A DNA stretch of 64,000 nt from Escherichia coli (GTDB lineage: Bacteria > Pseudomonadota > Gammaproteobacteria > Enterobacterales > Enterobacteriaceae): NCBI RefSeq assembly GCF_044324875.1, contig NZ_CP172185.1; one strand, 5' to 3'. Shown here piece after piece: positions 39,001 to 48,000 of the stretch. The position numbers were made by a program. Numbering within the stretch: the first letter of the stretch is position 1; every line of letters starts with the position of its first letter.

Positions 39001-42000
39001 TAGCGGCATATTTATCATGTAGAGATTATTCGCCGCCCACATCATTGAACACACCACAAAAAGTAGCCGCGTATCTCGCTTTCTATGGATGGAGGGTAAA
39101 ATTTCTACGGGTTGGGTAACGACAGGAATATTTCTTTGTATTGATGGCAAAAACAACCAGACTATCAGCCCGCAAACAATAAATGCGATGGCAGCGGTGA
39201 GATACATCACTTTAAAACTAAATCCCATTGCCAGTTCATAAGCGAGCGGTGGCCCGATAACCCAGGCAAGCGAGATCTGAGCACGTAAAAATGTACTGAA
39301 CATGACCGTCTCGCGACCTGTTCTGTCAGCGTGTTCACGGGCGAGGGCGAACATTTGCGGGTTTGCGGTGGAAGCAAAACTACTCAGAAGTACGCCCGTT
39401 GAGAGGAGAATGAAGTAGTTGCGATTCCACGCAAAAAGCGTGCAGGCCAGCACTCCAAATAAGCAACATAGCAGAATCAGTAATTTACGGTCGCCTTGTT
39501 TATCGGAGTGCCTTGCCAGAAATTGACTGACCAGAATTCCCATAATAGCGCTACCGGTGAAGAAAAAACCTACCATTATAGGACGAGCTTTCAGTTCATC
39601 TGCGAGGAATATACTTAGGGTAGGAGTCTGAAGAGCGCCCGCAATACCCGTCAGAAAGGCGACAAGTAAAAATGCCGCGGCAGTGAGATCAAGTATTTTT
39701 GATGGAGTGGTAGCCGTTTTTTGCATTCTTCTGAATCACCGGGCGACAAAATATAACTGAGTTACAAATAAGTACCAGTCGAATGAGTATTGTATTAAGA
39801 ATTTTTGAGTATCGCTGATACAACCAGAAAACAATGCTAGCGCAATATTATAGGGCCAGCAATTGAGATTATTAGCAAAAGCATGTTAAGAATTAATCAC
39901 CGAATTTATATATTAATTATAGTAAGGCAATGAGCTATTTTTGATAGTAAAAATAAAACAAGTTGATTTGATATGTTAAATGAACAAATTAATCTTGATG
40001 GCAGTCTGATTATTGGTGAAGTTTATAGGTCAGTTTTTTTTGCCAGCGGTTAAAGGAATAGAATCGTCGTATAAAAAAGGTGTTCTGGGGCGTGTGAAAC
40101 AACATCTTCACCTTAATGGCGATACAGTTGGCTGAGAGCCAGCAGGGGGCAAATCACCTGCAAATAAACACGGCACATGCTGGCGCGCATATCGCGGATG
40201 CGTTCGAGGACAGAAGAACCGACAGGCGGATTCTTCAGTCGCTCATCGTCCATCACAAAACTTTTGATCAGGTATTCCTGAAGCCGATTGAATATTGAGC
40301 AGATAGAAAATCTCTGGAATGACAGTATTACAAGGGGTTGGAGAATGTCAGAAGAGGTATTTTGGCGGAAGATCACAGGAGTCGAATATAAGTATTAATG
40401 CATTGATCTTAAATAATTTGTATGTGTTGGATAAATGAGTAACCCCCATAAGAACCCCCAAATGATTTTGCATGAAGGAATGAAGCTAAAATACATGATT
40501 GAATCAATTCTTAGTACTCTATTGTGAAGGTAACATTTCCGGATAGTGTCTGGCTATAATATCATTTAGCCGATCAACCAGTTCTGGTTTCCTGAACGTG
40601 ATGTGCGCGGAGCCTTTCTTAAAGTATCTGATGCTGAACATCTCATCTTCATAGCACTCTTTACCCTGAACAGACCGGATGTGATCATCCAGATGAATGG
40701 TGATGTTTTCCCGGTTGTCGGGGATCGGTTTACCGCTGAACAGGTGCAACATTCTTTCCAGATCGGCGAGTCGGTCAGCCTGTTGCCCGGTGATAAGATG
40801 AAATCCCCACCGGTCCCACCTTACCAGGTTGTTAATGATAATTTTACTGCCAAATTTACAGGGGCAATTAGTTTTGTAATTCCAGCTCAGTCCCCTGAAG
40901 ACGTTGATCACCCCTCGCTCAAACACTTCATCTTTGTTCTGGTGCAGTTGTTTAAATGTGCTCAGAATGTTCGCTTCACTGATTTCCGGAAAATTATCGT
41001 ACTCCAGTGACCGGTACCATGTATCACGGGCCTGCGCATCCATTAATGACAGCATCCCGGAACGTTGCGTCAGGTCACGCCAGATTTCGCGGTCAAGGTT
41101 GCGGGTGATGGCTTTCATTGCTGTTTCAGGTTTCTCCATGAGCCAGCATCCGCAGCGAAAATCCTGTTTCATCGCCCAGTCCCGTGCGCTTTTACCACCA
41201 ATGCTTTTTGTCAGTACTGAGATTTCAGTCAGTTGCCGGATAAGCGTTTCGGTTTGTTGCAGTGCTGCATTCCGTACCGTCACAACGTGTCGGATACTGG
41301 TGGAGCAGATAACGTCCGTATTCCCGGTGACCACTTCCGGATGGGAGATTGTGATGTTTGACATTATCGGTTTCCCTTTTGGTTTATAAACGAAAACGCC
41401 AGCCGTATTCAGGCTGGCGTCAGTGGAATGAAGTCTGGTGAGTAAGGCTCACCGGTTCTGTTGCAGAAGCTGCAGTTGGCGCAGGGTATGGATATCCTCC
41501 CTCGCCTGTTCAATGCAGGGCAGCAGTGCTGCCGAATCCGTTTTATCCTCATCGTTGTCAAAGATAATTCCCGATTCGCAGTCGATATTGTCCTGCAGCC
41601 ACGCAATCAGAATATCCAGTGCTGTTTCCGTGGTTAATGATTTCATGTTGTTCCTGGTTACCAGTTGAAAGTGGGTAAACCCGGCAGGCATTCAGCGCTG
41701 GCATCCAGATGAATGAGACTGACGCCATAACGTCGGGTAAGTGTGACAACCAGACAACGGAACGTTTTTGACAGGCCCAGGCGCTTAAGCCGCAGAACCG
41801 GGTATGACCACGCATCGGTACGTAACAGATAGCCGCTACCTGTGAAATGAATCCATTCTGATTCACCAACGTCACTGGTCTGATGCGACAGCGAGTACAG
41901 CCAGGCGTTATCCTTTTCCGTGATATGTGCGGTACTGCAGCGTATGCCGGCAAGGGTTGCAAACGGTGGTAGTGTGCAGGTTGACTGTTGGTCGGATTCC

Positions 42001-45000: not shown

Positions 45001-48000
45001 TTTATCTCTCCGGCCCGCCGCAGACGCAGCATGTGTTTTGTGTATCCCCGGCGGCCCGGGTCGCGCACACGGGTCTGGCAGGCGAAGAATGGCTGAAAGC
45101 CTTCCCGCTGCAGGCTTTCCAGTACGGTGATGGTGGGGATGTACGTATAGTTCTGGCTTCGGGACGTGTGTTTATCTTCCCCGAAAATCCCCGGCACATA
45201 GTGCATCAGTTCTTCGTGTGTCAGCGGACGGTCACGGCGTATCTGGTTCGCATAACCAAAACGACTGGCTAGTCGCATAATTTGCTCCTTATCGGTGGTT
45301 AAGATTTACTGGTGTAATAAATGAAAAAGCCACGTCTCCCGGAGAAGACGCGGCCTGATGGGTGAAATGAATGACGTTTATTGTCTGAGAAGACCGTCAC
45401 TGGCGAGCCGCGTATTAAGCACCTTTCCGGCATCGGGTTCAGAATTCCGGCAGCGCCAGCGTCGCTGACCTTCCGCGTTGCGGATAACCCGACGGAAATG
45501 CATTCCCGGGTCATCCTGGATAAACACATTGCGGTAAGCTGTTATGACAGCAACCGCCTGCCCGTATGAGAAAGATCCTTCAGCCAGGACATACTCTGTG
45601 TAACCCGGCATATCTGTTTTCTCCTGATAAATAAAAAGCCTCTGCCACGCGTTGTGACAGAGGCTGAAGCATGAAACTGACTTCAGGGATCAGTTAACGT
45701 TTTTTCCGGAAACGGTAATCAGCAGTGGATGGTAGTCCTGGGGATTGAAAACCGATAACGGCAGACTGACACGATGGCCGTTACTTTCTTCAGTTGCTTT
45801 AATGATTTCGGTTGTGGCGACATTTTCCACGCACTCCGTTTCCAGAAATGCGTCTGTGGTTCGCGTGGCATTACTGTCACCAAAAGCTTCCGTTTCCATT
45901 TTTCTGGTCACCAGCGTCTGACCATATTTGTCTTTGAGTTGCAGAGTGATGGTGAGGGGGCCAAATCCTTCATCGTTTCCGCCATTATCCAGCCGGAACT
46001 GGTAAGCACAAATATTTCCCGGGAGCCATATCGTATCTGTATTGCGTATACTGATGTAACGTTGATCCTGTGCCCGGAGTGGGGCAGACCACGTTAACCC
46101 CAGAATGAAGGCGGTAATCATGCAGGTTTTGAACAGGTGAATCATGGTATTTACCTCTCTGAGTCATGACGATGACACTGACAAATCAGGTGATAAAGCG
46201 TAAAAGGCGCAGAATAGCCGTTATGCCGGTAACTCCGGGGGTAATGCTTCTTCCAGTCGGTTAACCATATTGCCGAGATGGGATGCATCATATTCCATGA
46301 CGGGGCGTTGCCTGATGATACTGACCACCAGTGGTTTGATTAACATATTGGTCGCGGCCCGTTGTTGTATACCGGCGGCGAAAATGATCTCCAGAGCATT
46401 CTGATCGATAACACGGGCCAGATTCTCGTTCAGATTTTCAATCTCATGTCCGGTCAGCAGGAAACTGCCGGCAAGCCATGTCACCTGCTCCTGAATCATT
46501 GCCAGAATTTTGACGCGATCTTCTTCAACCAGCGCTCCGGCAATTTTTCCTGATACAGCGGAGGCAATCATTCCCCCCAGAACACCGCCAACCACACGCC
46601 CTGTCAGTGCACCAAATGGTCCCAGTGGACTGAACAGTATTCCGCCCGCCACTGACCCGACAGCACCACCTGCCACACCGGAAGATGCCACGGCAAGATT
46701 CCTGATGAACTGCGTACCGGAGATCCGTCCCCGCAACATTTTGATCATGTCAGGGCCGGTTGTGACAGCTACCAGTGCCAGAGATGTCACCAGCGTACCC
46801 TTCATCACTTTGTTCAGGGCACTGATATTTCCTGCACCGGTCCCCTTCTGAAGAGCCAGTCGGACAGTCGGGCTGGCAGTCGAAAAATCAATGTGCTTCA
46901 GCATACCCTGAACAACACTGAGCCGGTGGAGTTGCTGGGTTGTGACGTAGACAGCCAGTGTGCGGGTGAAGGTTTTTCCTGCCTGGACAGCAGCTGTCTG
47001 CAGGGCAGCATCGCGATCGCCGGTGCTGAGCCAGAAGACCGATGCCGTCAGGGCAAAACTGATCCCTCCGGCCGCCAGACTGACAACCGAACCCTCGGCA
47101 ATATCATAAGTGACCGATTCGATGGTCCCGAACCGGGTGATATTACGGGCCTGAGTATAAGTCAGATGTCCCCGACGAATCAGCCGGGATGCTTCTGCGG
47201 GATCGGTTACACCGGGTACTTTACCTTCGCGGATCTTATTCCTCATGGTTTCAACAGCGCCGGCATACTGATCACGGGGGACTTCCAGTTGCATGGGGCC
47301 ATTATTTCCCATGTAACGATACTGTCCGTTTTGTCCGTCGAATGCCGCACCGACGCTACGGGCTGCAGTTGAACAATATTTCGTCTGGATTTCTGTTCCG
47401 CTGACCAGTCTGTCTGCTCCATTTCTGGCATTATTATCACCGAGGATCCGTGCGTTTTTCAGACGGACTCTGTCGACAATATGGTTTCCCCGTTCAGCGG
47501 CAAACCCATGTCCCTGCCCTCCGGAAGCAAACATTTTCTCATTTGTACTCCAGGTTTCCGGCAGTTTCATGAGAATCAGACCATTCGCCGTTGCATCGGA
47601 AATAAAGCTGTTGTAAGGGCGTTCATAAATTTCCTGACACAGTGTTTCTGTTTCGCGACAAAGAGAGGAGCAGTACCATTCCGGATCCGGCTTATGATTT
47701 TCCGGGGCATGATGTACTTCTGTCAGCCCGCAGGAGGCACAGATACGAAGCTCATCCACGTGATGGAATGATACAAAACGGCGACCTTCTGAAAAGGGAT
47801 ACCAGTCACCGCCGTCCAGGCAACGATCGAGAAAATCGTCATTCGCTTCCGGTGATAAATTCAGGCGGTTCCGGAAGAGCGTTTTCAGTTCATCAGGTGT
47901 GAATGACAGGTTCTCTTTCAACTGTTCGTTAAACCCTGCCATGTTTCTTTCATACCAGGCATTGTTCAGTAACCAGTTTCCGTCTGCCAGTTCAAATTCC

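What the first reader, a model, noticed from the sequence alone, without database searches (positions are those of the whole stretch)
41658..45278. CP4-type accessory module: CbtA/CbeA toxin-antitoxin with RadC-like, antirestriction and DUF932 genes
The gene order DUF932, antirestriction, RadC-like, DUF987, antitoxin, toxin, then a 162-aa protein reproduces the yeeR-yeeW / yfjQ-ypjF arrangement of K-12 cryptic prophages as I recall it. Several such paralogous modules per genome can cross-interact.
Basis: established knowledge. Interest (0 to 1): 0.35.

Follow-up and report, generated by a model that had tools for sequence, protein, structure and literature searches.

The report
Known CbtA/CbeA toxin-antitoxin island module
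This is an intact copy of a well-described E. coli genomic-island gene cassette (antirestriction, RadC-like protease and CbeA/CbtA toxin-antitoxin genes) that about 93% of complete E. coli genomes carry, usually in several copies, so it is ordinary.

Summary
Seven intact minus-strand genes fill 45278..41658: DUF932, ArdB/KlcA antirestriction, RadC-like JAB, DUF987, CbeA, CbtA and DUF5983 (Pfam E 1e-21 to 1e-62).

The toxin-antitoxin pair is the YeeV/YeeU type: CbtA is 88% and CbeA 91% identical to the K-12 proteins, against 60-68% to YpjF/YfjZ and YkfI/YafW.

The cassette is the undeleted form of K-12 CP4-44. K-12 lacks window 43881..47216, which truncates yeeR and removes irmA, DUF905, DUF932 and ardB. 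K-12 also lacks most of DUF5983.

The unit runs past the stated coordinates, through DUF957 and DUF4942, to a 24-nt copy of the selC 3' end at 40363..40386. That repeat marks the distal end of a selC island of the AGI-3 type found in APEC BEN2908.

cbeA-cbtA occurs in 5065 of 5426 complete E. coli genomes, with a median of 3 copies. Cross-neutralisation between paralogues is published.

Minor points:
- CbtA here has Cys15, where K-12 has the MreB-contact residue Arg15.
- DUF932 and DUF905 have homologues in IncF plasmid leading regions.
- DUF5983 has no fold relative among solved structures.

Verdict: already known, low interest.

The parts
45378..45611 (-). DUF905 small protein (77 aa), homologue of K-12 YkfF. 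It is preceded and followed by terminator-like hairpins.
   Evidence: Pfam DUF905 9.5e-18. 46% identical to YkfF. 44% identical to the DUF905 protein of an IncF plasmid leading region. Hairpins at 45665..45637 and 45356..45327.
44460..45278 (-). DUF932 protein (272 aa), YfjQ/YafZ homologue; first gene of the finding.
   Evidence: Pfam 3.4e-52. 75% identical to YfjQ/YafZ. 63% identical to the DUF932 protein next to oriT/traM in an IncF plasmid. SD 'taaggag' lies before the ATG.
43920..44405 (-). ArdB/KlcA-type antirestriction protein (161 aa).
   Evidence: Pfam Antirestrict 3.9e-36. PDB 2WJ9 1e-97 and KlcA 2KMG 1e-19. 68% identical to YfjX/LfgA.
43428..43904 (-). RadC-like JAB/JAMM domain protein (158 aa from Met6; the ORF is open from 43919). 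The HNHPSGEVTPSKAD motif is intact.
   Evidence: Pfam RadC 5.4e-45. NCBIfam TIGR00608 150.6 bits, cutoff 133.85. 97% identical to YeeS. PDB 2QLC 7e-25. Motif read from the translation. RefSeq start as.
43138..43359 (-). DUF987 protein (73 aa), YeeT orthologue.
   Evidence: Pfam 4.1e-39. 94.5% identical to YeeT.
42607..42975 (-). CbeA (YeeU) type IV antitoxin, 122 aa, GTG start with SD 'gagagg'.
   Evidence: Pfam CbeA_antitoxin 7.9e-55. PDB 2INW and 2H28 (YeeU) 1e-76 to 1e-77. 91% identical to K-12 CbeA. Sequence.
42143..42517 (-). CbtA (YeeV) toxin, 124 aa, 89 nt downstream of cbeA. F65 is conserved. Position 15 is Cys, where K-12 has Arg.
   Evidence: Pfam CbtA_toxin 9.6e-62. 88% identical to K-12 CbtA. 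Alignment. Residue roles from PMC5624674.
41658..42146 (-). DUF5983 protein (162 aa), the full-length form of K-12 YeeW. Its start overlaps the cbtA stop by 4 nt (ATGA).
41449..41646 (-). 65-aa gene called 'DUF957' in RefSeq, 11 nt after the DUF5983 stop, with its own AGGA Shine-Dalgarno.
   Evidence: Sequence. RefSeq annotation of the 99.8%-identical locus. No hit in current Pfam.
41395..41421 (-). Terminator-like hairpin (10 bp, 7 GC) followed by a T-run. This is the likely end of the DUF932..DUF957 transcription unit (inferred).
40519..41364 (-). DUF4942 protein (281 aa), the last gene of the island.
   Evidence: Pfam 5.2e-69. PHROG hits include a domain shared with phage DNA methyltransferases (phrog_6263, 7e-19).
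40363..40386 (-). 24-nt copy of the 3' end of tRNA-Sec (selC), ttcgactcctgtgatcttccgcca. It is the distal att-type repeat that marks the island boundary.
   Evidence: The K-12 selC-setC region aligns to window 40386..39580 at 96.4%, starting inside selC. Sequence.
45690..48743 (-). Upstream neighbours: full-length yeeR (840 aa, 48743..46221) and irmA (46145..45690). They belong to the published agn43-yeeR-irmA operon, not to the TA cassette.
   Evidence: K-12 YeeR is 100% identical over 507 aa. Pfam IrmA 2e-37. Operon described in PMC4807369.

Best explanation
This is the conserved distal accessory cassette of a P4-integrase-type ('CP4-like') genomic island inserted at selC. It matches module 5 of the AGI-3 island type. 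The island ends at a 24-nt selC repeat, 133 nt beyond the last gene.

The core is a YeeU/YeeV-type type IV toxin-antitoxin pair. By homology, CbtA binds FtsZ (through the F65 surface) and MreB, and so blocks division and elongation. CbeA does not bind the toxin. It counteracts it by stabilising and bundling the FtsZ and MreB polymers.

The genes in front are DUF905, DUF932, ArdB/KlcA antirestriction, a RadC-like JAMM metalloprotease and DUF987. They resemble the 'establishment' genes carried in the leading regions of conjugative plasmids, so they probably protect or condition the element on entry into a new host.

The pair most likely stabilises the island (addiction) and adds to a pool of cross-neutralising paralogues.

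Shown here: gene identities, order, intactness, island boundary, population frequency and the relation to K-12. Inferred: single-operon transcription, the biochemical activities, and the establishment and stabilisation roles.
For: Domain assignments come and the K-12 identities. The CbeA match to the solved YeeU structures is, and ArdB matches PDB 2WJ9 and KlcA.

F65 is conserved, and its role in FtsZ binding is described in PMC5624674. The type IV mechanism and cross-neutralisation come from PMC5371832.

Several features suggest co-expression. The cbtA and DUF5983 genes overlap by 4 nt. Intergenic gaps are short and each gene has its own SD. Only one convincing minus-strand terminator-like hairpin follows DUF957.

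The island boundary repeat is shown. In the 99.8%-identical genome the island runs from setC to an integrase next to tRNA-Sec. The AGI-3 module 5 and agn43-yeeR-irmA context is from PMC4807369.

DUF932 and DUF905 homologues lie in an IncF leading region next to oriT, hok, psiB and ssb. YfjX, CbeA, YfjZ and YagB were reported as substrates translocated by the F conjugation machinery (PMC11288057). The YfjY paralogue of the RadC-like protein was reported to be a protease (PMC10846083).

Frequency: 5065 of 5426 genomes carry cbeA-cbtA, and 4270 carry at least 80% of the 3.9 kb in one place.
Against: No experiment exists on this particular copy. No sigma-70-like promoter was found in front of DUF932 by the simple scan, so expression is unproven.

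CbtA here has Cys15. In K-12 CbtA the R15C change weakens MreB binding, although YpjF also has Cys15 and still binds MreB.

Wen et al. found that the upstream genes do not help to neutralise the toxin, so a functional link between the two halves of the cassette is unsupported.

None of the proteins matches a PADLOC defence model. A stabilising role for CbtA/CbeA on islands has not been shown directly.
Confidence: 0.88

Rival explanations
1. The cassette is chiefly an anti-phage (abortive infection) device. Phage infection would release CbtA, and the arrest of division and elongation would limit phage spread. The island carries the cassette as a defence cargo.
For: Toxin-antitoxin systems in general are often defence systems, and cryptic prophages and islands are defence hot-spots (general knowledge). 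K-12 CP4-57 carries abpAB and rnlAB defence genes in the same element.
Against: No protein of the cassette matches any of the 5027 PADLOC models. The neighbouring ArdB gene is an anti-defence function, not a defence function. No phage phenotype for CbtA/CbeA appears in the papers read.
Confidence: 0.12
2. The cassette is a remnant of a true P4-like satellite prophage, and these are phage genes used in the satellite's lytic or lysogenic cycle.
For: It carries the historical 'CP4' name. PHROG families exist for DUF932, ArdB, RadC and DUF987. The island also encodes a DUF3987/YfjI-type protein, an AlpA-like HTH protein and an inovirus Gp2-family protein.
Against: Among 50,697 phage records only one 3.2-kb unannotated record matches. 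In contrast, DUF932 homologues occur in at least 4,979 mostly conjugative plasmids, in the leading region. No capsid, tail or P4 sid/delta/psu genes are annotated in the island of the closest genome.
Confidence: 0.08
3. The genes are selfish, silent passengers with no present function. They are kept only by hitch-hiking with the island and by recombination between copies.
For: K-12 tolerates two deletions in its CP4-44 copy. In APEC BEN2908 the cbtA and neighbouring genes are annotated as frameshifted, though this may be an assembly error. In this window, IS3 and IS21 insertions show that the island is decaying.
Against: All ten ORFs from DUF905 to DUF4942 are intact here. At least 80% of the 3.9 kb is retained in one place in 4270 of 5426 genomes. 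Published phenotypes exist for the K-12 paralogues, covering toxicity, oxidative stress and biofilm.
Confidence: 0.1

Closest known systems
E. coli K-12 CP4-44 yeeR-yeeS-yeeT-cbeA(yeeU)-cbtA(yeeV)-yeeW
   Same: Orthologous at high identity: YeeR 100% over 507 aa, YeeS 97%, YeeT 94.5%, CbeA 91% and CbtA 88%. The order is the same, the cbeA-cbtA spacer is about the same (89 vs 88 nt), and cbtA overlaps the next gene by 4 nt in both.
   Different: K-12 is a deletion derivative. It lacks window 43881..47216, which holds the yeeR 3' end, irmA, DUF905, DUF932, ardB and the radC 5' end. It also lacks about 41532..41997, which holds the DUF5983 C-terminal domain and the DUF957 5' half. The MG1655 deletion was already noted in PMC4807369. 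K-12 CbtA has Arg15; this copy has Cys15. CP4-44 lies at a different chromosomal site and has no integrase.
AGI-3 selC island of APEC BEN2908 (module 5) and the selC islands of other E. coli such as LH85-a
   Same: Same insertion site and the same gene series: GTPase, ag43, yeeR, irmA, DUF905, DUF932, ardB, radC, DUF987, cbeA, cbtA, DUF5983, DUF957, DUF4942. Identity is 99.7-99.8%. The identical ag43::IS3 junction is found only in BEN2908 among 5426 genomes.
   Different: The window is not identical to either genome. It carries an IS21-family element at 57813..60453 that is absent from LH85-a at that site. It retains setC, which is not annotated at that position in BEN2908.
K-12 CP4-57 (yfjQ ... 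yfjX-yfjY-ypjJ-yfjZ-ypjF) and CP4-6 (yafZ ... yafX-ykfG-ykfH-yafW-ykfI)
   Same: The same families in the same relative order. The paralogous toxins also target FtsZ (and, for YpjF, MreB), and the antitoxins cross-neutralise.
   Different: Protein identity is only 60-81%. The toxin-antitoxin spacer is 20 nt rather than 89 nt. There is no DUF5983, DUF957 or DUF4942 downstream. Several unrelated genes separate DUF932 from the antirestriction gene.
Leading-region genes of IncF conjugative plasmids (DUF932, DUF905, ssb, psiB, hok)
   Same: DUF932 is 63% and DUF905 44% identical to plasmid proteins encoded next to oriT/traM. ArdB/KlcA is a classic plasmid antirestriction family.
   Different: The plasmid region has no CbtA/CbeA, RadC, DUF987 or DUF5983. 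The island has no oriT or transfer genes annotated. The resemblance suggests a similar role, but the cassette is not a member of that region.

Membership tests
CbtA/CbeA (YeeV/YeeU) type IV toxin-antitoxin system | The toxin carries the CbtA_toxin domain (PF06755) at full length. | tested here: met
   E 9.6e-62, profile positions 1-112 of 112. 88% identical to K-12 CbtA over 124 aa.
CbtA/CbeA (YeeV/YeeU) type IV toxin-antitoxin system | The antitoxin carries the CbeA_antitoxin domain (PF06154) and the YeeU fold. | tested here: met
   E 7.9e-55. Matches the solved YeeU structures 2H28 and 2INW at 1e-76 to 1e-77 over 119-121 residues.
CbtA/CbeA (YeeV/YeeU) type IV toxin-antitoxin system | The antitoxin gene lies immediately upstream of the toxin gene on the same strand. 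| tested here: met
   cbeA 42975..42607 and cbtA 42517..42143, with an 89-nt spacer. K-12 has 88 nt.
CbtA/CbeA (YeeV/YeeU) type IV toxin-antitoxin system | The FtsZ-contact residue F65 of the toxin is present. | tested here: met
   F65 is invariant in the alignment with CbtA, YpjF and YkfI. Its role is described in PMC5624674.
CbtA/CbeA (YeeV/YeeU) type IV toxin-antitoxin system | The MreB-contact residue R15 of K-12 CbtA is present. | tested here: not met
   Position 15 is Cys, as in YpjF and YkfI. This residue is not conserved in the family, and YpjF binds MreB with Cys15. It is therefore an allele difference, not grounds for exclusion from the family.
CbtA/CbeA (YeeV/YeeU) type IV toxin-antitoxin system | The toxin arrests growth and gives lemon-shaped cells. 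The antitoxin rescues without binding the toxin, by bundling FtsZ and MreB. | not testable with these tools
   Needs expression, microscopy and interaction assays. Known only for the K-12 proteins.
CP4-type (P4-integrase) tRNA-inserted island, distal accessory module | Gene series DUF932, antirestriction, RadC-like, DUF987, antitoxin, toxin. | tested here: met
   compared with K-12 CP4-57, CP4-6 and CP4-44.
CP4-type (P4-integrase) tRNA-inserted island, distal accessory module | The cassette lies at the island end opposite the integrase, next to a repeat of the tRNA 3' end. | tested here: met
   24-nt selC 3' repeat at 40363..40386, 133 nt beyond the last gene.
CP4-type (P4-integrase) tRNA-inserted island, distal accessory module | A tyrosine integrase lies next to the intact tRNA gene at the other end. 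| tested here: inconclusive
   The window has no tRNA and ends before the island does. In the 99.8%-identical genome NZ_CP100486 an integrase lies next to tRNA-Sec, about 39 kb from setC.
ArdB/KlcA antirestriction proteins | Antirestrict domain (PF03230) and sequence match to the solved ArdB and KlcA structures. | tested here: met
   E 3.9e-36. 2WJ9 at 1.2e-97 and KlcA 2KMG at 1.2e-19. Activity against type I restriction is not testable here.
RadC-like JAB/JAMM domain proteins | RadC JAB domain with an intact HxHx7Sx2D metal-binding motif. | tested here: met
   Pfam RadC 5.4e-45. TIGR00608 scores above its cutoff. The motif HNHPSGEVTPSKAD is read directly from the translation. Protease activity was reported only for the paralogue YfjY/LfgB.

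The most novel reading that the evidence does not exclude
DUF5983 and the 65-aa 'DUF957' protein may be functional partners of the CbtA/CbeA pair, for example a third and fourth component that sense a trigger or tune toxin activity. That would make the common E. coli form a four-gene system, of which K-12 kept only a stump. Several observations leave this open. DUF5983 is translationally coupled to cbtA through a 4-nt overlap. The family is small, with 213 cluster representatives among 1.8 billion representative proteins. Its confident model has no fold relative among solved structures. The 65-aa gene lies immediately downstream, and a recent preprint discusses an AntiFam 'spurious' entry found in that same position next to DUF5983 and cbtA; whether it is the same ORF was not verified.
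Probability: 0.15. Interest if true: 0.35.

Novelty: already known. Interest (0 to 1): 0.08.

Why it matters
It matters little beyond correct annotation. The locus shows what the intact ancestor of the much-studied K-12 CP4-44 yeeR-yeeW region looks like. Work on K-12 has used a copy that lacks DUF932, ArdB, full-length YeeR, IrmA and most of DUF5983. The natural Cys15 CbtA allele and the uncharacterised DUF5983/DUF957 pair are small, cheap experimental targets. The similarity of DUF932 and DUF905 to plasmid leading-region genes hints that part of the cassette serves to establish the element in new hosts.

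Tried and rejected
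1. PADLOC scan of ten cassette proteins gave no hit, so there is no support for a catalogued defence system.
2. The toxin has no sequence relative among solved structures. DUF932 has only chance-level hits.
4. I considered whether the ORF after DUF5983 is reached by a -1 frameshift, as a 2026 preprint suggests for AntiFam ANF00264. In this sequence the 65-aa ORF has its own ATG 11 nt after the DUF5983 stop and an AGGA Shine-Dalgarno at the right distance. A separate gene is the simpler reading. The identity of this ORF with ANF00264 could not be verified because AntiFam is not available here.
5. The Rfam 'isrC' hit at 51058..51180 first looked like the K-12 isrC sRNA upstream of flu. It lies on the other strand, inside an IS3-family element. 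By my reading it is the Salmonella-type IsrC family and unrelated to K-12 isrC.
6. I looked for the source strain through the ag43::IS3 junction. Only BEN2908 shares it, but the rest of the window is not identical to that assembly.
7. The simple promoter scan found no sigma-70-like site in front of DUF932, and overall no more sites than in shuffled sequence.
8. The MqsA operator reported for the CP4-57 lfgA promoter was not pursued. Here the antirestriction gene is preceded by DUF932 with only a 54-nt gap, so the upstream region is not homologous.

Full report
OBSERVATION.
- DUF932: 45278..44460
- Antirestriction protein: 44405..43920
- RadC-like protein: 43919..43428. The likely true start is Met6 at 43904, as in the RefSeq annotation of a 99.8%-identical locus.
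- DUF987: 43359..43138
- CbeA: 42975..42607
- CbtA: 42517..42143
- A 162-aa protein: 42146..41658

Every one matches its Pfam family far above threshold. The 162-aa protein is a two-domain DUF5983 protein. Each gene has a plausible Shine-Dalgarno sequence, and cbtA and DUF5983 overlap by ATGA. No second copy of the cassette occurs in the 64-kb window.

RELATION TO K-12. I fetched the three K-12 loci and ran BLASTP.

| Window protein | Closest K-12 protein | Other K-12 paralogues |
|---|---|---|
| CbeA | 91% to CbeA/YeeU | 68% YfjZ, 64% YafW |
| CbtA | 88% to CbtA/YeeV | 65% YpjF, 61% YkfI |
| RadC-like | 97% to YeeS | 81% YkfG, 70% YfjY |
| DUF987 | 94.5% to YeeT | 66% YkfH, 62% YpjJ |
| DUF932 | about 75% to YfjQ and YafZ | none in CP4-44 |
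| ArdB | 68% to YfjX, 66% to YafX | none in CP4-44 |
| DUF5983 | 71% to YeeW over 52 of its 64 residues | none |

CbeA also matches the solved YeeU structures 2H28 and 2INW at E 1e-76 to 1e-77. The pair is therefore of the CP4-44 (YeeU/YeeV) lineage.

At the DNA level K-12 CP4-44 aligns to the window on both sides of a gap. K-12 lacks window 43881..47216, about 3.3 kb. That deletion fuses a truncated yeeR to yeeS. It removes the yeeR 3' end, irmA, DUF905, DUF932, ardB and the first 15 codons of radC. The window's 840-aa ORF (48743..46221) is full-length YeeR and is 100% identical to the 507 shared residues. A second K-12 gap (about 41532..41997) removes the DUF5983 C-terminal domain and half of the next gene. 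The first deletion has been noted in print (PMC4807369).

EXTENT AND CONTEXT. The unit extends beyond the finding.
- Downstream lie a 65-aa gene (41646..41449, 'DUF957' in RefSeq), a terminator-like hairpin (41421..41395) and DUF4942 (41364..40519).
- 133 nt further on is a 24-nt copy of the 3' end of selC (40386..40363). From there the sequence is collinear at 96.4% with the K-12 selC-setC backbone. This repeat is the distal boundary of a selC island.
- The window contains no tRNA and ends before the island does. In the closest genome the island runs from setC to a tyrosine integrase next to tRNA-Sec.
- Upstream lie DUF905, then irmA, yeeR and ag43. The agn43-yeeR-irmA operon is published and corresponds to module 5 of AGI-3 of APEC BEN2908.
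- Terminator-like hairpins after irmA and after DUF905 fit that operon ending before the cassette.

FREQUENCY. The 3.9-kb query matches 5006 of 5426 complete E. coli genomes. In 4270 of them one place covers at least 80% of the query. The median is 3 places per genome and the maximum 16. The cbeA-cbtA segment alone matches 5065 genomes, with a median of 3 and a maximum of 15, and several genomes carry 100%-identical copies. Nearly all places are chromosomal.

MECHANISM. This part rests on homology and published work, not on tests of this copy.
- CbtA inhibits FtsZ and MreB polymerisation through separable contacts. CbeA does not bind the toxin but stabilises its targets (PMC5371832; PMC5624674).
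- F65, which is needed for FtsZ binding in all three K-12 toxins, is conserved here.
- Position 15 is Cys rather than the Arg of K-12 CbtA. R15C weakens the MreB interaction of K-12 CbtA, but YpjF has Cys15 and still binds MreB. The consequence for this allele is open.
- CbeA, YafW and YfjZ each neutralise all three toxins.
- The RadC-like protein keeps the JAMM motif HNHPSGEVTPSKAD (read). Its paralogue YfjY/LfgB was reported to be a protease.
- ArdB is nearly identical to PDB 2WJ9 and related to KlcA. That 2WJ9 is E. coli ArdB is from my memory of Serfiotis-Mitsa et al. 2010.

WHAT THE FRONT HALF RESEMBLES. A sensitive DNA search of plasmids found full-length copies of the cassette in only 32 records, several of them chromosome-sized. 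It also found a 68%-identical DUF932 segment in at least 4,979 plasmids, mostly conjugative. In one IncF plasmid that gene lies in the leading region, between the oriT/traM side and hok, psiB, DUF905 and ssb. Protein identity to the window proteins is 63% for DUF932 and 44% for DUF905. YfjX, CbeA, YfjZ and YagB were reported among proteins translocated by an F-type conjugation system (PMC11288057). Together with ArdB, this suggests by inference only that DUF905, DUF932, ArdB and perhaps RadC act when the element enters a new host. The phage collection holds a single 3.2-kb unannotated record with a match, so a true phage origin has no support.

VERDICT. The cassette is already known: it is annotated in RefSeq, described in K-12 and in AGI-3-type islands, and near-ubiquitous in E. 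coli. The residual novelty is limited to the uncharacterised DUF5983/DUF957 pair and the Cys15 allele. Interest is low.

Noticed in passing
window 50990..52243 (and ag43 ORF 48858..51041): A 1254-bp IS3-family element replaces about 1.05 kb holding the 5' part of ag43 and its upstream region. ag43 is therefore 5'-truncated, and the agn43-yeeR-irmA operon has lost its promoter. Among 5426 E. coli genomes the same junction is found only in APEC BEN2908.
   Followed up: yes
window 51058..51180 (+): An Rfam 'isrC' hit (147 bits) lies inside the IS3-family element, on the strand opposite to ag43. By my reading it is the Salmonella island sRNA family and not the K-12 isrC that precedes flu. K-12's isrC region does not align here.
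   Followed up: partly
window 41449..41646 (-): This 65-aa gene is called 'DUF957' in RefSeq and has no hit in the current Pfam. It lies 11 nt after the DUF5983 stop and has its own AGGA Shine-Dalgarno. It is probably the ORF class that a 2026 preprint discusses as AntiFam ANF00264 (claimed spurious or frameshifted), but that identity was not verified.
   Followed up: partly
window 57813..60453: An IS21-family element (istA-like 57935..59581, istB-like 59355..60353) is inserted in the island. It is absent at this site from the otherwise 99.8%-identical genome NZ_CP100486.
   Followed up: partly
window 43025..43105 (-), within the 162-nt DUF987-cbeA spacer: The spacer is about 89 nt longer than in K-12 (73 nt). 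It contains a 26-codon ORF (MTSDAAVDEAILINEYTFTETGQRAG) without a clear Shine-Dalgarno. It is probably not a gene, and its conservation was not examined.
   Followed up: no
window 1438..1567 (+): A full-length Rfam match to istR, the antitoxin sRNA of the tisB/istR type I system (147.5 bits). This is a second, unrelated toxin-antitoxin locus in the window.
   Followed up: no
window about 18611..35900: A 3418-aa ORF (18611..28867) with internal ~291-nt repeats corresponds to the inverse autotransporter IatC. It is followed by eilA and type III secretion translocon, tip and chaperone genes, going by the annotation of the collinear genome NZ_CP100486. This is an ETT2-associated locus beside the selC region.
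   Followed up: no
window 43578..44351 (+) and 44694..45272 (+): Two long antisense ORFs (257 and 192 aa) overlap the ardB/radC and DUF932 genes. No annotation or family support was sought. They are most likely artefacts of G+C-rich coding sequence.
   Followed up: no
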